DNA from: an uncultured Rickettsiales bacterium
Lineage (GTDB): Bacteria; Pseudomonadota; Alphaproteobacteria; Rickettsiales; SXRF01
Assembly (NCBI GenBank): GCA_964529155.1
Contig: CAZGVV010000008.1
Location: forward strand, 1-45,260
DNA: 45,260 bases
Direction of reading: 5' to 3'
Under the pieces are notes generated by a model that searched no databases, was not told where the DNA came from, and saw only the letters and a list, made by a program, of their open reading frames with translations. The translations under genes were made by a program, and so were the position numbers. Shown here piece by piece: positions 6,031 through 39,307 of this stretch. Each line of letters opens with the position of its first letter. Within the stretch, counting starts at the first letter, position 1.

Positions 6031-6912
6031 ATGTCCATTCTCATCAACAAAAATACCAAGGTCATCTGCCAAGGCTTTACCGGCCGTGAAGGCACGTATC
6101 ATTCTGAGCAGGCAGTAGCGTATGGCACGCAGATGGTGGGTGGCGTGACGCCTGGCAAAGGTGGCACGACACATATTGATCTGCCGGTATTTGACACAGT
6201 GGAGCAGGCTAAAGCAAAAACCGGTGCGAATGCATCGGTGATTTATGTACCGCCGCCATTTGCCGCCGACGCCATTGTAGAGGCGATTGATGCACAGATG
6301 GAATTGGTGATTTGCATCACCGAAGGTATTCCTGTGCTTGACATGGTGAAGGTAAAACGCGCGCTGTGCGGTAGCAAAACACGCCTGGTCGGGCCGAACT
6401 GCCCCGGCGTCATTACACCCGGCGAATGCAAAATCGGCATCATGCCAGGGCATATTCATAAAAAAGGCCGCATAGGCATTGTATCACGCTCCGGCACCTT
6501 GACCTACGAAGCGGTAGCACAAACCACGGCGGAAGGACTGGGCCAGTCTACCTGCGTTGGTATTGGCGGCGACCCGGTAAACGGCACGAATTTCTTGGAT
6601 GTGCTGGATCTCTTCCTGCATGACAGCGAAACCGACGCGATTATTATGATCGGCGAAATCGGTGGAGATGCGGAAGAAGAAGCCGCAGCGTTCCTGAAAG
6701 CCTCGAAAATTAAAAAGCCTATTGTTGGCTTCATCGCTGGCCGCACGGCTCCTCCAGGACGCCGCATGGGCCACGCGGGTGCTATCGTATCCGGCGGCAA
6801 AGGTGGTGCAGAAGACAAGATCGAAGCCATGAAATCGGCAGGCATTGCAGTAGCGGATTCCCCCGCGAGCCTTGGTATTACGATGAAGGAGTTACTGAAG
6901 AAGGTGGCGTAA
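6031..6912 (+). CDS. sucD: succinyl-CoA ligase (ADP-forming) subunit alpha
   Basis: [36 protein letters not shown], and [12 protein letters not shown] (phosphohistidine loop). 293 aa. AGAGGAG RBS upstream. Confidence 0.95.
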
Positions 6913-6914
6913 GC

Positions 6915-7289
6915 ATGATAGATAATCGCACCTCGTTTAACACACTCGTTAAAAATGTTGCTGATTTGAAAGGCTGGCGGCGCACCGCAAGCGGAGGCAT
7001 TGCCATTCGTTTTGATGAGGTTGAAAAGCAAAATACACCCGAAAATGAAGTATTGAATGCATTCCACCAATTGCAAGAACGTTCCGTTTTGCTCCCAACT
7101 AATTCACGTGGAAAAGATATTCATGCAATTATAATGCAATTTTCTGCTTCCTTAGCAACAAAGGAGGAGAAAGAAAGAGGCGTAATGCCTCCAGCATTTT
7201 ATGCACAAGGTAATACACTAAAAAATGCGATAGAAAATAATCCAGATTATAAAGCCAATTTGCAAAGGGCTTCTTTAGGACGCTTTTAA
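6915..7289 (+). CDS. hypothetical protein (AT-rich orphan ORF, no family recognised)
   Basis: 124-aa ORF starts 2 nt after the sucD stop, with AAGGTGG 7 nt upstream. Codon first positions are purine-rich. It is visibly more AT-rich than its flanks. Confidence 0.5.
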   Translation: MIDNRTSFNTLVKNVADLKGWRRTASGGIAIRFDEVEKQNTPENEVLNAFHQLQERSVLLPTNSRGKDIHAIIMQFSASLATKEEKERGVMPPAFYAQGNTLKNAIENNPDYKANLQRASLGRF

Positions 7290-7993
7290 CTCCTGCCCCG
7301 CCCCTGATTTGCCGTTTGCGTCATCGCTTCCTGCACGAATTTTCCGGCGAGATTGAAGCCACGAGCGGCAAGCTCCTTCACCACATCTTTCCCCACCTCA
7401 TAAAGACCAAGCTGAGCCATGGAATAATCGCCATGGGCTTTATCAATGGTATGTAATTCCTGATCAGCAGTGGCAATATTGGCTTTTAGGGCCGCGGTTT
7501 GTTCGGGATGGCTTTGGATCATTTCAGCATATTCTTCCACCTGGGCATTTAAATCCTCCTGGCGGTCGAGGAAATCACGGTCTGCCACGGGTTTAAGCAA
7601 CGCCGCGAAAAGGACGCCATATTGCTGGTATAAATCACTGAGGCGCTGGCGGGTAGAGCGATCCGGTGCACTAGGGGCGGGTGTGGCATCACGGCGAACC
7701 AGTTGCGTTCCATCGCCAGCACCTGCCCCATGCGGCCGCAAGGTGGCTAATGGTTTGGATTGCAGATAGCGCAGCGCGCTGACATCATAGGCCAAACGCT
7801 CAATGGTGAGCCGTTCCGGCGGTATCCCACCGGAGATAAATGCCCGCACAGCATCTTGAAAATACTCAATTCTTGGCCGCGGATCTCCACGCCCCACCAG
7901 CAAGGCATAGCGCTGTTCGACGTCAGAGAGTTCCAGGCATAGCCGACCGAGCAGCTCAACGATGCCTTGTAGTTCAGTTGCCGATAATTTCAT
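7286..7993 (-). CDS. hypothetical protein (235 aa, no family recognised)
   Basis: Long ORF with host-like GC content. Only short junk ORFs lie on the opposite strand. It is divergent from hemW. Confidence 0.55.
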   Translation of the reverse strand: MKLSATELQGIVELLGRLCLELSDVEQRYALLVGRGDPRPRIEYFQDAVRAFISGGIPPERLTIERLAYDVSALRYLQSKPLATLRPHGAGAGDGTQLVRRDATPAPSAPDRSTRQRLSDLYQQYGVLFAALLKPVADRDFLDRQEDLNAQVEEYAEMIQSHPEQTAALKANIATADQELHTIDKAHGDYSMAQLGLYEVGKDVVKELAARGFNLAGKFVQEAMTQTANQGRGRS

Positions 7994-22459: not shown

Positions 22460-25351
22460 ATGACTGTACCCTTTGACTCCACGCCTATTTTTTCCGGTAA
22501 CGCCACTTTTGTAGAAGAGTTGTATGAGCGTTATTTGCAGAATCCGCAAAATGTAGATGCCGCATGGCGTGATTTTTTCCGTGAAACAACGAATGGCTCC
22601 GGCAGTTCAGCACGAAGCGCTTCATGGGCCGCCGTAAAAAGCCAGGTTATCGGCGCAAAAGAAGAGGTTTCTGACACCAAGCCGTCCGCTAAGGATAAAG
22701 GCAAACCTGTTGCAACCAGCCAAGAAGTAATTGAAGCGGCAACGCATGATTCCATCCGCGCCATGATGATGATTCGCGCGTATCGCGTGCGTGGACATTT
22801 GATTGCCAATTTAGACCCGTTAGGTTTAGAAGGCGGCGAGCCGCACCCGGAATTAACACCAGAGCATTACGGCTTTACTGAGGCCGATTATGATAAGGAC
22901 ATTTTTCTCGATGGCGTGCTGGGCCTGAAAAAAGCTAAGCTGCGCGATATTATTTCTGCATTGCGTCAAACGTATTGCGGCACGGTGGGCGTAGAGTTCA
23001 TGCATATCCAGCACCCCGAGCAAAAAAGCTGGATCCAGCATCGCATTGAAGACACACGCGGCCGCCCACAATTCAGCGCCGAAGACAAGAAGGCGATTTG
23101 GAATTCACTTGTAGAAGTAGAAGCGTTTGAGCAATTCCTGCAAGTGAAATATCCCGGCACGAAGCGGTTCTCGGCCCAAGGCGGCGATGCTATGATTCCA
23201 GGTTTGGAATCTATTATCAAAACGGCTTCAAGCCTTGGCGTGCAGGAAATTATTTTCGGCATGCCACACCGTGGGCGTATGAATGTGCTCACCACCATTA
23301 TGGGCAAACCTTATGCGGAATTGCTTTCTATTTTCCAGGGCAATTTAGATTTTCCGGAATGGATTAACTCATCCGGTGACGTAAAATACCATTTGGGCGC
23401 AACGACGGACCGTAATGTAAACGGCAAGAATGTGCACATGAGCTTGCTGTCCAACCCATCGCATTTAGAGGCTGTTGATCCCGTAGTCTGCGGTAAGGTG
23501 CGTGCAAAGCTTGATATTCGCGGTGATTCCGAAGCGAAAACATCCGTAATGGGTGTATTGATGCATGGTGACGCAGCGTTTTGTGGCCAAGGTAGCGTTG
23601 CTGAGACACTGGCACTTTCCGAGCTTCGTGGTTACCGCACAGGCGGCACGATCCATTTGATCGTCAACAATCAGATCGGCTTCACCACCAGCCCCAAATA
23701 TAGCCGTTTTACCCCCTACCCCTCCGACATTGCCAAAGCCGTGCAAGCACCGATTTTCCATGTGAACGGGGATGACCCGGAAGCTGTGGCATTCGTATGT
23801 CGTCTAGCCGCCGAGTTCCGCCAGGAATTCAAGCGCGATGTGGTCGTGGATATGTTCTGCTACCGTAAATACGGGCATAATGAATCCGATGAACCGATGT
23901 TTACGCAACCGTTAATGTACAAAGAGATCGCGCGTCATGCCCTACCGGCGCATATTTATTCCGACCGCCTGGTGGCGGAAGGTACGGTTTCAAAGGAAGA
24001 GGTTGACCAGCGTTTCGCGGAATTTAAATCCAAATACGAAAAAGATTACGAAACCGCAAAAAACTTTAAGCCGAATAAGGCAGACTGGCTGGAAGGTAAC
24101 TGGACCGGGTTTGAACCTCCCAAAACAGAGCAGGAAGAACCGGTTACTGGCCTGGAAGAAAACATGCTCAAAGCCATTGGGGAGGCGCTTTCTATGCAAC
24201 CCCAAGGCGTACATCTCAACTCGAAAATTATTCGTCAGTTGGAAGCAAAACGTAAGATGGTCGAAACCGGCGCTGGCTTTGACTGGGCAACCGCGGAAGC
24301 GTTGGCGTTTGGAACATTGCTGGCGGAAGAGCATCCGGTGCGTTTATCGGGCCAGGATTGTGGCCGTGGCACCTTCTCGCAACGGCATGCCGTATTGGTG
24401 GACCAGGACAATGAGCAGCGCTATGTGCCGTTAAATCATGTGGCTGAGGTGCAATCGCAATTTGAGGTGATTGACTCTTCTTTGTCTGAATTCGCCATTC
24501 TTGGCTTTGAATATGGCTATTCGCTGGGGCAACCACAAGGCCTTACCATGTGGGAAGCGCAATTTGGTGATTTTGCAAACGGCGCTCAGGTAATTATCGA
24601 TCAATTTATTGCCAGCGGTGAGAGCAAATGGCTGCGTATGTCAGGGCTTACCATGCTGCTACCGCATGGCTATGAGGGCCAGGGACCAGAGCATTCCAGC
24701 GCACGATTAGAACGTTATTTGCAGCTCTGCGCTGAAGATAATATGCAGGTGGCCAATTGCACAACACCTGCCAACTATTTCCATATTCTGCGCCGCCAGA
24801 TTCACCGCAATTATCGCAAACCATTGATTTTGATGACACCTAAATCACTACTGCGCCATAAGCTTGCGGTATCGAAATTGGCAGATATGGGTAAAAATAC
24901 CCGCTTCCTGCGCTTAATTCCGGAGACAGAAAAACTTATCAAAGAAGACAAGGTAAAACGCGTCGTGCTGACGTCCGGCAAGGTCTATTACGATTTATTC
25001 GAAGCCCGTGCAGAAAAAGGCATTGATGATGTAGCCATCATCCGCATTGAGCAATATTATCCCTTCCCGGCACGCGAACTGAAAACCGAGCTTGCGCGTT
25101 ACAAAAACGCCGAAATCGTCTGGTGCCAGGAAGAGCCACGTAATATGGGCGCCTGGTTCTTTGTCCGCGAACGTATTGAAGCGGTACTGGACAGCTTAGG
25201 CCGCCTGAATGAACGCGTGAGCTATGTAGGCCGGATTGAAGCGGCTTCCCCTGCCGCTGGATACCTCAAGATTCATGAGCGCCAGCAGAAAGAATTGGTG
25301 GATAATGCACTTGAAGTAAAGGGCGCCAAGCTTAAAGCAGCCAAGGCATAA
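22460..25351 (+). CDS. sucA: 2-oxoglutarate dehydrogenase E1 component
   Basis: 963 aa. N-terminus FSGNATFVEELYERYLQNPQNVDAAWRDFF. ThDP-binding region (GMPHRGRMNVL, HGDAAFCGQG) and transketolase-like C-terminus. Confidence 0.95.
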   Translation: MTVPFDSTPIFSGNATFVEELYERYLQNPQNVDAAWRDFFRETTNGSGSSARSASWAAVKSQVIGAKEEVSDTKPSAKDKGKPVATSQEVIEAATHDSIRAMMMIRAYRVRGHLIANLDPLGLEGGEPHPELTPEHYGFTEADYDKDIFLDGVLGLKKAKLRDIISALRQTYCGTVGVEFMHIQHPEQKSWIQHRIEDTRGRPQFSAEDKKAIWNSLVEVEAFEQFLQVKYPGTKRFSAQGGDAMIPGLESIIKTASSLGVQEIIFGMPHRGRMNVLTTIMGKPYAELLSIFQGNLDFPEWINSSGDVKYHLGATTDRNVNGKNVHMSLLSNPSHLEAVDPVVCGKVRAKLDIRGDSEAKTSVMGVLMHGDAAFCGQGSVAETLALSELRGYRTGGTIHLIVNNQIGFTTSPKYSRFTPYPSDIAKAVQAPIFHVNGDDPEAVAFVCRLAAEFRQEFKRDVVVDMFCYRKYGHNESDEPMFTQPLMYKEIARHALPAHIYSDRLVAEGTVSKEEVDQRFAEFKSKYEKDYETAKNFKPNKADWLEGNWTGFEPPKTEQEEPVTGLEENMLKAIGEALSMQPQGVHLNSKIIRQLEAKRKMVETGAGFDWATAEALAFGTLLAEEHPVRLSGQDCGRGTFSQRHAVLVDQDNEQRYVPLNHVAEVQSQFEVIDSSLSEFAILGFEYGYSLGQPQGLTMWEAQFGDFANGAQVIIDQFIASGESKWLRMSGLTMLLPHGYEGQGPEHSSARLERYLQLCAEDNMQVANCTTPANYFHILRRQIHRNYRKPLILMTPKSLLRHKLAVSKLADMGKNTRFLRLIPETEKLIKEDKVKRVVLTSGKVYYDLFEARAEKGIDDVAIIRIEQYYPFPARELKTELARYKNAEIVWCQEEPRNMGAWFFVRERIEAVLDSLGRLNERVSYVGRIEAASPAAGYLKIHERQQKELVDNALEVKGAKLKAAKA

Positions 25352-36968: not shown

Positions 36969-37085
36969 CTAATTTAAGTTCTTCAGGAAGATTTGCACTT
37001 TAACAGTCGTGCCCTGGCTAAAGTCGCGGTCACTGGTAAAATCGTGGCCTGCCGTGGTTTGAACAGTAAGACATTCATTTTGAAA
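36969..37085 (-). other. out-of-frame 3' coding remnant of lptD (canonical C-terminal beta-strands)
   Basis: A different frame from the lptD ORF reads FQNECLTVQTTAGHDFTSDRDFSQGTTVKVQIFLKNLN*. This follows the LptD C-terminal pattern (compare E. coli GVQYSSCCYAIRVGYERKL...AIGFNIELRGL). Confidence 0.65.
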
Positions 37086-37114
37086 TACAAAAGATAGTTT
37101 TGAAAAATCTCTCC

Positions 37115-39226
37115 CTAGATAATAATAATTCTGAACTTTATATTGCGACAGAACTTTTGGAATATAAGTCCGGCATTTGTGCCTACAAATGCATTACGTA
37201 TCAAATCTCGGTTAGCACCAGCACTTAGTGTCCAGTATTTACCCAGTTTCACCCAGGTACCACCTGTAATATTTTCTTCATTACCTAGCACCGGATCATT
37301 ATTCAAATCCAGATAATTCACACTAAATCCCAAACGCTCCCAACTAAGGCTCGCATTCAACTCGCTTCGGTTAGGGGTAAGCGTATCCTTATCCAAACGA
37401 AACCGATAAGACAGATCTATAGGCAAATAGCTTATTCCCAACATGCCAACATAATCGGAGAAATGGCTTTTTAAATCGTTTGATACAGGGAAAAGTGGAT
37501 CATTATCGATCCGATATGACTGGCCTAACAAACCTCTAATTGCCGTATTTTTTTCTAAGAACCGTTGGCTTCGCATCCCATATTTCATGCGCGGACCACT
37601 CTCCACGCGATCATAGCCTGCGAAGCGATTAGCGGAGAACAAATTCACATCGGTAAATTCAGGAATACGGCTGTCTTCGTTTGGAATACGCGAAGAATTG
37701 CCACTTCCCGGGCTGGCAATGGCTTGCACGACAGGCTCTAGGGTCAGGTTGCTATGGGCATAGCGGCTAATTAATGGGTAACGCCATTCAAGCATCGTTT
37801 GCGGCACTAAACGTCCGGCGTTGCCATCAAAGCTTTTTCCATTCGGCAATGCCTGCTGACTGACGTCATAGGCATCCCCTCGTAAGCTGGTGCTGAATTC
37901 AAAAATATGCCCATCAGCGGTTAGATAAGGCACACTCCATTTTCCTTGCATCGACAAGCGCCGGCTATCCGCCCCGACATCACGGGTTAGCGCCATGGCA
38001 TCTGCGTTGAGGGAAAAACGGGAATTCCATGCCATTGGCACTGTTTCATAATAGGCATCAAGTAACGGCAATACCAACGGACTGGTATGGGGATCAGCAT
38101 CAATTTGCATCCCTTGAAATGTAAATGCTTGTACGGACGCATAGTTACGGCCTGATTCACCAGCATAATTAAAATCTTCCGCATACAAACGCGATGTCAA
38201 TACAGGGTCATAATTGATGTCATACCGGCGAAGATAGGTGTCATCTGTAGTGCGGCGAATGCGAAAGCCCCAATCCGAATTATCCGTAATAGAGAAATCC
38301 CCATTGCCAAAGAAATGTCCGCGCAAAGAACCACCTTCTTCCGGCACGTTATTTGCACTCTTACTTTGAGGGGCTGTGATGCTGCCGTCCAGCTTCATGG
38401 CACCTTCATTAAAACGCTGGCGGTACTCCCCAAACAATATGGGCGAATCAAGCGCTATAATAACTGGCGTGATAGTCAAATCACGGTCTGGAGCAATCGA
38501 CCAATAAAGTGGTATTCGTATAATACTGCCCAAATTGGAATTACGCTGATAAGTAGGTGTCAGAATACCACTTTTATTATCCGCACCGGGCATAGTCTGC
38601 GAAAAATACGGCGTGTAAAGCACCGGGACACCATAGAAATCCATATAGGCATCACGGTAAACAATACGCTGCTCGCCTTTGTCTATTGTGGCTTTATCAG
38701 CCTGAATTTGCCAGAGCGGTGTTTTAGGCGTTTTTTTATCGTCGCAAACAACAAAGCATGGCGAATAAACAGCACGGTATAATTTAGTGACCAGTTCATT
38801 TTCACGCTTAGCTTTGCTGGCAACCAGCAGCGAATTGTCGGATAAGCGTTCTTTAAATTCCGTTACAACGCCCGTTTTCATGTCGTTGTTGAGTTCCATG
38901 TCATCGGCAAAATATACATTGCCGGATGATTCCATTACGCTGACATGGCCTTCGGCAAATACGGTATTATTGCGTTGATCATAGGTCAAGGTATCCGCAA
39001 GCAAGACAGTTTCGCCCTGAGACACCTCCACATGCCCTTCAGCAATAAGGAAATCATGGTCTTTATCGTATTCCATTTGATCGGCCGTCAGCAGTACTGG
39101 CTCACCAGAGGATACTGCCTTCGAGGAAGGCCCCGACATTTTTGCCGCCGCAGGCATACTGTGGCTTCCCCAACCCAGGATGCCCAACAAAAAAACTATT
39201 CTATATAAAACAACAGCTTTATTCAT
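37115..39226 (-). CDS. lptD: LPS-assembly protein LptD (3' end apparently disrupted; the ORF terminates in a non-homologous tail)
   Basis: Signal peptide from ATG 39226 (MNKAVVLYRIVFLLGILGWGSHSMPAAA). OstA-like N-domain (LLTADQMEYDKDHDFLIAEGHVEV, GNVYFADDMEL) and a large beta-barrel region. The ORF-track TTG start is at 39262. The tail FQKFCRNIKFRIIII* is atypical. Confidence 0.85.
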   Translation of the reverse strand: MNKAVVLYRIVFLLGILGWGSHSMPAAAKMSGPSSKAVSSGEPVLLTADQMEYDKDHDFLIAEGHVEVSQGETVLLADTLTYDQRNNTVFAEGHVSVMESSGNVYFADDMELNNDMKTGVVTEFKERLSDNSLLVASKAKRENELVTKLYRAVYSPCFVVCDDKKTPKTPLWQIQADKATIDKGEQRIVYRDAYMDFYGVPVLYTPYFSQTMPGADNKSGILTPTYQRNSNLGSIIRIPLYWSIAPDRDLTITPVIIALDSPILFGEYRQRFNEGAMKLDGSITAPQSKSANNVPEEGGSLRGHFFGNGDFSITDNSDWGFRIRRTTDDTYLRRYDINYDPVLTSRLYAEDFNYAGESGRNYASVQAFTFQGMQIDADPHTSPLVLPLLDAYYETVPMAWNSRFSLNADAMALTRDVGADSRRLSMQGKWSVPYLTADGHIFEFSTSLRGDAYDVSQQALPNGKSFDGNAGRLVPQTMLEWRYPLISRYAHSNLTLEPVVQAIASPGSGNSSRIPNEDSRIPEFTDVNLFSANRFAGYDRVESGPRMKYGMRSQRFLEKNTAIRGLLGQSYRIDNDPLFPVSNDLKSHFSDYVGMLGISYLPIDLSYRFRLDKDTLTPNRSELNASLSWERLGFSVNYLDLNNDPVLGNEENITGGTWVKLGKYWTLSAGANRDLIRNAFVGTNAGLIFQKFCRNIKFRIIII

Positions 39227-39307
39227 TTTTGCGATACTTACTTTACACAAGGCATACGCCAACTTATCTTTCTTAAAACAGTTGCTATTTAAAGGCTAGG
39301 AATTGAT

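What the first reader, a model, noticed from the sequence alone, without database searches (positions are those of the whole stretch)
36969..37162. A 77-nt segment interrupts lptD and shifts its canonical C-terminal beta-strands out of frame
The lptD ORF ends ...NAGLIFQKFCRNIKFRIIII* with TAG at 37115-37117. In a different frame, the DNA just downstream encodes FQNECLTVQTTAGHDFTSDRDFSQGTTVKVQIFLKNLN* with its stop at 36969-36971. That is the expected LptD C-terminus (compare E. coli GVQYSSCCYAIRVGYERKL...AIGFNIELRGL).

The two points are exactly 77 nt apart: TTC CAA AAG starts at 37162 and TTT CAA AAT starts at 37085 (minus-strand reading). They share an imperfect direct repeat, TATTCCAAAAGTTCTGTC vs TATTTCAAAATGAATGTC (13 of 18). 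Deleting the 77 nt restores ...NAGLIFQNECLTVQ... in frame.

Possible explanations:
- A small insertion, or a duplication followed by decay.
- An assembly or sequencing artefact.
- Genuine truncation of the last barrel strands of an essential outer-membrane protein.
- Much less likely, a recoding event. Both sites are Phe codons read by the same tRNA, which is reminiscent of take-off and landing pairs in translational bypassing. However, no stop codon follows the first site.
Basis: partly seen in the sequence, partly recalled or inferred. Interest (0 to 1): 0.6.

Follow-up and report, generated by a model that had tools for sequence, protein, structure and literature searches.

The report
77-nt filler breaking lptD, probably misassembly
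A unique, AT-rich 77-base segment really does split the end of the essential outer-membrane gene lptD in this contig, but the same draft genome has similar local errors in other essential genes, so it is most likely an assembly artefact and not biology.

Summary
The lptD frame stops at TAG 37117-37115 after an aberrant 13-residue tail. The canonical LptD C-terminus (NECLTVQ...FLKNLN*) lies intact in the -1 frame. Removing exactly 77 nt (37086-37162) gives a gapless match to all 13 same-family relatives.

The insert is 27% GC (genome 50.6%) and single-copy. It has no Rfam match and no significant fold, and it is bracketed by an imperfect 10-18 nt direct repeat.

No reads and no conspecific sequence could be obtained.

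The genome context decides my reading. This is a scaffolded draft with 123 N-gaps. A survey against one relative genome found other defects at or away from gaps:
- the only ftsH copy lacks about 25 nt;
- glnA lacks 41 nt and kdpB 10 nt;
- xthA carries a seamless ~126-nt piece of a foreign ABC-transporter gene;
- atpD and infB contig ends carry 33- and 105-nt unrelated tails.

LPS genes (lpxC, lptF, lptG) are intact.

Best reading: a local misassembly (filler at a contig join), about 0.6. A genuine recent insertion inactivating lptD: about 0.28. Recoding (bypass or -1 frameshift): about 0.04, because its defining signals are missing. Low interest until reads say otherwise.

The parts
37163..39262 (-). 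lptD body (OstA N-terminal domain plus LptD barrel) up to ...NAGLI. The public gene call starts further in and gives 680 aa.
   Evidence: 45-55% identity to same-family LptD over residues ~45-708. (Pfam PF04453 and PF03968 recorded for the window's own product).
37086..37162 (-). The 77-nt intervening segment: 27% GC, unique in the genome. The boundaries can slide by a few nt.
   Evidence: No Rfam match. Fold z = 0.08 over 131 nt and -0.54 over the 77 nt.
37115..37117 (-). Premature TAG stop of the lptD frame, inside the insert, after the aberrant tail KFCRNIKFRIIII.
36969..37085 (-). Orphaned authentic 3' end of lptD in the -1 frame: FQNECLTVQTTAGHDFTSDRDFSQGTTVKVQIFLKNLN plus stop. It holds the invariant Cys, the rest of the penultimate barrel strand and the last strand.
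   Evidence: 30 of 36 residues are identical to the closest homologue P0002, against ~60% for the whole protein. Strand mapping comes from the AlphaFold2 model of P0002.
37148..37165 (-). Upstream copy of the imperfect direct repeat (ATATTCCAAAAGTTCTGT).
   Evidence: 12 of 18 in register, 0.24% of shuffles. The core TATT[C/T]CAAAA matches at 9 of 10.
37071..37088 (-). Downstream copy of the imperfect direct repeat (GTATTTCAAAATGAATGT). A third TTTCAAAA lies at 37098-37105.
37126..37155 (-). Weak AU-rich hairpin directly after CAA AAG (-6.3 kcal/mol, z = -1.8). This is the only candidate for a 'take-off' structure.

Best explanation
The 77 nt are most likely not part of the organism's lptD. I read them as a local misassembly.

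Proposed mechanism (inferred):
- At a low-coverage break in this scaffolded short-read draft, one contig end carried a short unrelated tail. Such a tail can come from a chimeric read or from another organism's DNA, and it is shorter than a read.
- The assembler's gap-closing or overlap-joining step then merged that tail with the next contig through the ~10-nt similarity TATT[C/T]CAAAA. It did not leave an N-gap.
- The real gene would then read ...NAGLIFQNECLTVQ... and encode a normal 26-strand LptD.

What is shown: the interruption itself, the intact orphan tail, the gapped draft, and several comparable defects elsewhere in the assembly.

What is inferred: that the lptD insert arose in the same way.
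For: (1) The genome is a gapped draft. It has 123 N-runs in 110 scaffolds, 110 of them exactly 10 N.

(2) I used a full relative genome as a yardstick (1,859 ORFs, 1,320 with a match). Nearly all frame breaks in conserved genes sit at N-gaps.

(3) The breaks without N are multi-nucleotide and hit genes a cell cannot lose.
- The only ftsH locus lacks ~25 nt just after HEGGH.
- glnA lacks 41 nt.
- kdpB lacks 10 nt.
- In glnA and kdpB the same 5-13 nt serve both flanking frames, as expected from a spurious overlap-merge.

(4) Contig ends carry unrelated unique tails.
- atpD has 33 nt before a 10-N gap where only one codon is missing.
- infB has 105 nt after a 22-nt duplicate.

(5) There is one seamless foreign patch without N. 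In xthA, ~126 nt encoding an ABC-exporter H-loop region ([42 protein letters not shown]) replace ~10-14 codons.
- The patch is only 51-56% identical to the genome's own ABC exporters.
- It again has about a 10-nt overlap (KQL) at one junction.

(6) The lptD insert has the same profile: shorter than a read, unique in the genome, foreign in composition, and with ~10-nt similarity at the join.

(7) Biology argues against a fixed lesion.
- lpxC, lptF and lptG are intact.
- The orphan tail is better conserved than the rest of the protein.
- The cut removes half of the penultimate strand and the whole last strand of the barrel.
Against:
- Removing the 77 nt restores the gene exactly, with no native base lost or duplicated. 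The other defects lose native bases, so exactness fits a true insertion in a DNA molecule at least as well.
- Under the artefact model the tail had to end in a near-copy of the native 10-13 nt. That is improbable for any one contig end, although the assembler's joining rule selects for it.
- The window's scaffold has no N-gap, so there is no direct sign of a join at this spot.
- The genome does carry real foreign AT-rich DNA inserted into the 3' end of ilvC.
- It also carries real mini-elements inside coding genes.
- The assembler and its rules are not known to me. What I say about gap closers rests on my memory of such programs.
Confidence: 0.6

Rival explanations
1. The insert is a genuine, very recent insertion of 77 nt of foreign AT-rich DNA, joined through microhomology or an att-like short repeat. 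It truncates LptD: the protein ends in KFCRNIKFRIIII and lacks the last barrel strand. The allele would be either a dying or minority variant that low coverage let into the consensus, or the first step of LPS-export loss in a host-associated lineage.
For: - Excision is exact and the insert is flanked by an imperfect direct repeat.
- The same genome has a 1.2-kb AT-rich segment inserted 8 codons before the ilvC stop with the same layout.
- AT-rich in-frame inserts occur in other conserved genes.
- The replacement tail keeps a Cys at the position of the invariant Cys.
Against: - lptD is single-copy.
- The LPS pathway is otherwise intact.
- The cut removes the last strand and half of the penultimate one. 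By established knowledge of LptD barrels, that should prevent barrel closure.
- The orphan tail shows no decay.
- Unlike at ilvC, the new tail does not rebuild the lost residues and there is no cargo.
- The genome is not pseudogene-rich.
- Its other odd lesions hit ftsH and glnA, which points to assembly errors and not to gene decay.
Confidence: 0.28
2. The insert is real and lptD stays functional through recoding.

- One route is translational bypassing: the ribosome takes off at CAA 37159-37157 (or TTC) and lands on CAA 37082-37080 (or TTT), skipping 77 nt.
- The other route is a -1 frameshift at CAA_AAG. It would read the insert in the open frame and add 26 residues (KVLSQYKVQNYYYLGRDFSKLSFVFQ).
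For: - The take-off and landing codons match, and a bypass would restore the protein exactly.
- The tail is conserved although out of frame.
- The rest of the LPS machinery is intact.
- The C-terminal frame is open across the AT-rich insert, which only 10.6% of shuffles achieve.
- A weak hairpin follows CAA AAG.
Against: - The codon after the take-off site is AAG, a common codon here (13 per 1000). It is neither a stop nor a rare codon.
- The hairpin is weak (-6.3 kcal/mol, z = -1.8), and the flanking regions have no significant structure.
- The gap is longer than the 50 nt of T4 gene 60 (PMC7026636).
- None of the 13 relatives or 120 homologues has an insert here, so nothing shows conservation.
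- C CAA AAG is not an X XXY YYZ slippery heptamer, and the hairpin starts too close to it.
- A 26-residue insert in the middle of a membrane strand, just before the invariant Cys, should wreck the barrel.
Confidence: 0.04
3. The organism has a real in-frame insertion of about 26 codons at this site, and the assembly additionally lacks or adds one base near the 5' junction. The frame break alone would then be the artefact.
For: - The C-terminal frame is open from ~37200 through the insert.
- In-frame short inserts occur in other genes of this genome.
- The draft has small indels elsewhere, for example the aroQ-like gene on C50 and the recN-like gene on C2.
Against: - The insert would lie in the middle of the penultimate strand, where no relative has extra residues.
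- It lacks the GGATGAC/GTCATCC arrays of the genome's in-frame mini-elements.
- This reading needs two independent events.
Confidence: 0.05

Closest known systems
Local misassemblies (chimeric contig tails, spurious overlap joins, wrong gap fills) in scaffolded short-read metagenome bins
   Same: - The draft is gapped, with 123 N-runs.
- The filler is unique and shorter than a read.
- There is ~10-nt similarity at the join.
- Sister cases occur in the same assembly: the xthA patch, the atpD and infB tails, and the ftsH, glnA and kdpB deletions.
   Different: Here the native sequence is preserved to the base on both sides, and there is no N-gap nearby. The other cases lose native bases or sit next to an N-gap.
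Translational bypassing of the 50-nt gap in phage T4 gene 60, and the byps of Magnusiomyces mitochondria
   Same: A non-coding gap lies inside an essential gene. The codons at its two edges match (CAA/CAA), and skipping the gap restores the exact protein.
   Different: - No stop or rare codon follows the take-off codon.
- There is no strong take-off stem-loop.
- No nascent-peptide signal can be recognised.
- The gap is 77 nt, not 50 nt (gene 60) or 27-55 nt (byps; range recalled from memory).
- The insert is single-copy and has no relatives.
Integration of foreign DNA into the 3' end of a gene with an element-borne replacement tail (e14 in icd of E. coli; the ilvC insert of this same genome)
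   Same: Foreign AT-rich DNA sits near the 3' end of the gene and runs in the same direction. It is flanked by an imperfect direct repeat whose upstream copy joins the gene body, and the native tail is orphaned downstream.
   Different: The insert is only 77 nt, with no cargo and no recombinase. The new tail shares just F-Q-x-x-C with the native one, and it removes two barrel strands where such elements normally rebuild the lost tail.
Short repeat elements tolerated inside coding genes (Rickettsia palindromic elements; the GGATGAC...GTCATCC mini-elements of this genome)
   Same: The size class is similar: 65-80 nt in this genome's elements against 77 nt here. The location inside a conserved protein gene is also shared.
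   Different: Those elements are multi-copy, palindromic and in frame. The lptD insert is single-copy, has no significant fold, lacks their motifs and breaks the frame.

Membership tests
Assembly artefact (local misjoin or chimeric filler) | The assembly is fragmented or scaffolded, so hidden joins are plausible | tested here: met
   123 N-runs in 110 scaffolds, 110 of them exactly 10 N. None lies in the window's own scaffold.
Assembly artefact (local misjoin or chimeric filler) | Independent examples of the same kind of error in the same assembly | tested here: met
   - xthA has a seamless foreign ABC-gene patch.
- atpD and infB contig ends carry unrelated tails.
- The only ftsH lacks ~25 nt.
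- glnA lacks 41 nt and kdpB 10 nt.
Assembly artefact (local misjoin or chimeric filler) | Reads do not support the junctions, or support an empty site | not testable with these tools
- No conspecific sequence exists in any collection searched.
T4 gene 60-type translational bypass | [quoted passage not shown] | tested here: met
   CAA 37159-37157 matches CAA 37082-37080. TTC and TTT are read by the same tRNA-Phe.
T4 gene 60-type translational bypass | A stop (or rare, 'hungry') codon directly after the take-off codon (PMC7026636) | tested here: not met
   The next codon is AAG, at 13.0 per 1000 codons in this genome's long ORFs. The first stop comes 13 codons later.
T4 gene 60-type translational bypass | A take-off stem-loop, plus 5' and 3' structures | tested here: inconclusive
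   - The hairpin after CAA AAG is -6.3 kcal/mol, z = -1.8.
- The 5' region has z = -1.1 and the region after the landing site z = +0.8.
- The whole 131 nt has z = 0.08.
T4 gene 60-type translational bypass | A nascent-peptide signal that holds the peptidyl-tRNA | not testable with these tools
   No sequence rule for such a signal exists. The upstream peptide here is ...NRDLIRNAFVGTNAGLIFQ.
Mitochondrial byps / mobile bypass elements | Many related copies in one genome | tested here: not met
   Single copy: no second match longer than 20 nt.
-1 programmed ribosomal frameshift | An X XXY YYZ slippery heptamer with a stimulatory structure 5-9 nt downstream | tested here: not met
   Only C CAA AAG is available. 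The weak hairpin starts 1 nt after it.
Element integrated in a gene's 3' end with a replacement tail (e14/icd type) | The element-borne copy restores the gene's C-terminus | tested here: not met
   The new tail KFCRNIKFRIIII* shares only the Cys position with NECLTVQ...KNLN*. ilvC in the same genome does meet this feature.
Element integrated in a gene's 3' end with a replacement tail (e14/icd type) | Cargo genes and/or a recombinase between the repeats | tested here: not met
   There are 77 nt in all between the repeats.
MITE / palindromic in-frame element (RPE-like) | Multi-copy, with terminal inverted repeats or a palindromic fold, and a length that keeps the frame | tested here: not met
   - Single copy.
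- No significant fold.
- Only a 6-nt CAAAAG/CTTTTG terminal inverted match, read directly from the sequence.
- 77 is not a multiple of 3.

The most novel reading that the evidence does not exclude
The 77 nt are real and fixed, and ribosomes hop from CAA (37159) to CAA (37082) to make full-length LptD. This would be a chromosomal, bacterial translational bypass of a gap longer than any known one. It would also work without a stop codon at the take-off site.
Probability: 0.03. Interest if true: 0.9.

Novelty: not a real feature. Interest (0 to 1): 0.15.

Why it matters
**If it is an artefact**
- The finding matters mainly as a quality warning. This bin carries hidden, N-free local errors in conserved genes (lptD, ftsH, glnA, kdpB, xthA).
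- Split genes, odd inserts and 'pseudogenes' reported from it need read support before anyone interprets them.

**If the insert proves real**
- It would be either a natural knock-out of the last LptD barrel strands in a bacterium that still makes LPS, or a new case of ribosomal bypassing.
- Both would interest specialists.

One read-mapping experiment decides between these.

Tried and rejected
- **Conspecific sequences.**
  - The best other LptD is 60% identical and the best fragment 53%.
  - A 90-aa query around the junction found no candidate.
  - An exact look-up of the neighbouring cytochrome c1 gene found nothing.
  - Exact-pattern scans of metagenome and genome contigs, for both halves of the insert and for the empty site, gave 0 hits.
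- **Other copies in the genome.** None.
- **Known RNA family.** None, only noise hits.
- **Stable structure.** None.
- **Tandem duplication with decay.** Rejected: there is no similarity beyond 18 nt.
- **A coding fragment of a recognisable foreign gene inside the insert** (as in xthA). Six-frame tblastn gave only chance hits.
- **Genome-wide family of AT-rich gene-splitting inserts.** Rejected: lptD is the only N-free orphaned C-terminal tail among 845 matched genes.
- **Link to the AATCAAAAG repeats around the ORF between mdh and sucC.** I looked at them. They are too short to tell.
- **Mapping the break on solved LptD structures by sequence.** The alignments stop before the C-terminus, so I used an AlphaFold2 model of the closest homologue.
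- **A scan for low-identity patches in conserved genes.** It flagged 34 regions, and I could not tell errors from natural variable loops among them.
Full report
**1. The observation**

On the minus strand the lptD ORF (39262..37115) ends ...NAGLIFQKFCRNIKFRIIII, with TAG at 37117-37115. One frame over, the DNA reads ...FQNECLTVQTTAGHDFTSDRDFSQGTTVKVQIFLKNLN and stops at 36971-36969. TTC CAA AAG (37162) and TTT CAA AAT (37085) are 77 nt apart.

I fetched LptD from 13 genomes of the same family (45-55% identical). All are uninterrupted and end ...GL.[YF].[ND]EC...FT.DRD...LKNL[NDE]*. The window's sequence without the 77 nt aligns to them without a single gap.

The closest homologue anywhere (P0002, 60% identical) ends ...NAALTYQNECITVQSTAGHDFTSDRDFRQGTSVKVQLFLKNLH. 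The orphaned 36 residues match it at 30 of 36 positions, better than the protein as a whole. So the description is correct and is not a chance effect.

**2. Anatomy of the insert**

- It is 27% GC, against 46% for lptD and 50.6% for the genome.
- It is single-copy in the genome.
- It matches no Rfam family.
- It does not fold better than shuffled sequence (z = 0.08 for 131 nt; -0.54 for the 77 nt).
- It is bracketed by an imperfect direct repeat. Only 0.24% of shuffled inserts match as well in register.
- A third TTTCAAAA lies 20 nt inside the insert.
- The lptD frame meets a stop inside it. The C-terminal frame is open right through it, as are 10.6% of shuffles.

**3. What the break would do to the protein**

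I made an AlphaFold2 model of P0002 with 38 aligned homologues (mean pLDDT 78.6). It places the junction inside the penultimate barrel strand (residues 708-732), immediately before the invariant Cys722. Downstream of the junction lie the rest of that strand and the last strand, 742-751.

The stop at TAG would therefore give a barrel without its closing strand. By established knowledge of LptD barrels, the first and last strands form the seam. In E. coli the C-terminal cysteines also make the disulfides to the N-terminal domain. Such a protein should not work.

The rest of the pathway is intact: lpxC, lptF and lptG are full-length. lptD is single-copy.

**4. No direct test was possible**

- The species appears nowhere else.
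  - The next LptD is 60% identical.
  - The best fragments are 53% identical.
  - A short query at the junction found no candidate.
  - An exact look-up of a neighbouring gene found nothing.
  - Four exact-pattern scans, for the two halves of the insert and for the empty site, found nothing.

**5. The genome context decides my reading**

The genome is a scaffolded draft with 110 scaffolds and 123 N-runs, 110 of them exactly 10 N. I fetched essentially the whole genome of one same-family relative, G005. I then compared its 1,859 ORFs with the window's genome; 1,320 had a match.

Nearly every frame break in a conserved gene sits at an N-gap. From the homologues, these gaps hide roughly 0-27 nt.

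Two gaps show what contig ends can look like here.
- In atpD the left contig carries 33 unrelated nt (KVAASKAGKVN) where one codon is missing.
- In infB the left contig runs on for 105 unrelated nt after a 22-nt stretch with which the right contig starts again.
- Both tails are unique in the genome.

Breaks without N are few, and they are odd in kind.

| Gene | Defect |
|---|---|
| ftsH (only locus) | lacks ~25 nt just after HEGGH; its M41 domain is split between two frames |
| glnA | lacks 41 nt |
| kdpB | lacks 10 nt, which looks like the collapse of a 10-nt tandem |
| other genes (recN-like, aroQ-like, a C27 ORF; C34 -59 nt in a variable region) | smaller or less clear breaks |

In glnA and kdpB the same 5-13 nt are read by both flanking frames. 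That is what a spurious overlap-merge of two contig ends produces.

Most telling is xthA on C40. It contains, without any N, ~126 nt encoding [42 protein letters not shown].
- This is the H-loop region of an ABC exporter, sitting in place of ~10-14 exonuclease III codons.
- The patch is only 51-56% identical to this genome's own ABC exporters, so it is not a copy of them.
- It shares about 10 nt (KQL) with xthA at one junction.

A living bacterium cannot have its only ftsH, its lptD and its glnA broken while the other ~1,300 compared genes are intact. These are best read as assembly errors. The lptD insert fits the class: shorter than a read, unique, foreign in composition, and joined through a ~10-nt similarity.

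From memory, not tested: gap closers and scaffold joiners of common de Bruijn assemblers merge ends on overlaps of about 6-10 nt with mismatches, and otherwise write 10 N.

**6. What speaks against the artefact**

- Removing the 77 nt restores the gene to the base, whereas the other errors lose native bases. A true insertion in a DNA molecule explains that at least as naturally.
- The window's scaffold has no N.
- The genome also holds real foreign AT-rich DNA in a comparable position. A 1.2-kb segment lies eight codons before the ilvC stop. It carries an AT-rich synonymous copy of the tail and leaves the native tail orphaned downstream.
- At lptD, however, the new tail does not rebuild the protein and there is no cargo.
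- The genome also has a family of 65-80-nt elements, built of GGATGAC arrays facing GTCATCC arrays, inserted in frame in several genes. The lptD insert has none of their motifs.

**7. Recoding**

By the features listed for T4 gene 60 in PMC7026636, only the matched codons are present (CAA/CAA).
- The following codon is AAG, common here at 13 per 1000, not a stop.
- The only hairpin is weak (-6.3 kcal/mol, z = -1.8).
- The flanks are unstructured.
- The gap is 77 nt, not 50.
- No relative shares the insert.

A -1 shift at CAA_AAG would keep the frame open to the true stop. But the site is not a canonical slippery heptamer. The product would also carry 26 extra residues in the middle of a membrane strand.

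**8. Verdict**

My probabilities:

| Reading | Probability |
|---|---|
| Local misassembly | ~0.6 |
| Genuine recent insertion that inactivates lptD (a minority or dying allele, or the first step of LPS-export loss) | ~0.28 |
| Real in-frame insert plus a 1-nt error | ~0.05 |
| Recoding | ~0.04 |

Read mapping over C8:36,700-37,400 settles the question. Low interest unless the reads support the insert.

Noticed in passing
G000 contig C40: 6922-7047 (minus strand), inside xthA 6637-7515: A seamless ~126-nt patch encodes an ABC-exporter H-loop region ([42 protein letters not shown]). It replaces ~10-14 codons of exonuclease III. It is not a copy of the genome's own ABC genes (51-56% aa identity), so it is probably a chimeric assembly patch.
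   Followed up: partly
G000 contig C4: ~37951-37957 (minus strand), ftsH: The only ftsH locus lacks ~25 nt just after the HEGGH motif. It is split between two frames without any N. The Pfam M41 model matches at positions 2-26 and 35-191 in different frames.
   Followed up: partly
G000 C9 ~24631-24644 (glnA); C78 ~2216-2237 (kdpB); C2 ~49246-49321 (recN-like); C50 ~2792-2820 (aroQ-like): These are further frame breaks without N in conserved genes.
- glnA lacks 41 nt.
- kdpB lacks 10 nt, the apparent collapse of a tandem AAAACGCCAG.
- The recN-like and aroQ-like genes have small indels.
In glnA and kdpB the same 5-13 nt serve both flanking frames.
   Followed up: partly
G000 C83: 3277-3309 (atpD); C42: 12241-12347 (infB): Contig ends next to 10-N gaps carry unrelated tails that are unique in the genome: 33 nt in atpD and 105 nt in infB. 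In infB the tail follows a 22-nt stretch that is repeated right after the gap.
   Followed up: yes
G000 C13: 13003-13080; C68 ~6860-6930; C27: 25176-25235; C1: 21399-21470; C49: 4375-4440; C31: 19896-19967: This is a family of 65-80-nt mini-elements made of GGATGAC arrays facing GTCATCC arrays. At least three copies are inserted in frame inside conserved genes (a kdsB-like gene, a lipB-like gene and one on C68). One adds the peptide ITDDSTQMTKTPASYHPPCVIRHPSP. They look like cargo-less forms of the repeat-bracketed cassettes in earlier notes on this genome.
   Followed up: partly
ilvC ends ...KLVDKAKN* in AT-rich codons. A 1.2-kb AT-rich ORF follows and ends in a second ...KLVDKAKN* in GC-richer codons.
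   Followed up: partly
G000 C11: 26397-26429; C9: 10438-10554; C24: 941-985: These are short AT-rich (27-33% GC) in-frame inserts in conserved genes, relative to the G005 orthologues. The C11 insert sits in GC-rich flanks (56-62% GC).
   Followed up: no
They share CAAAAG with the lptD repeat (TTCCAAAAG). The match is too short to judge.
   Followed up: no
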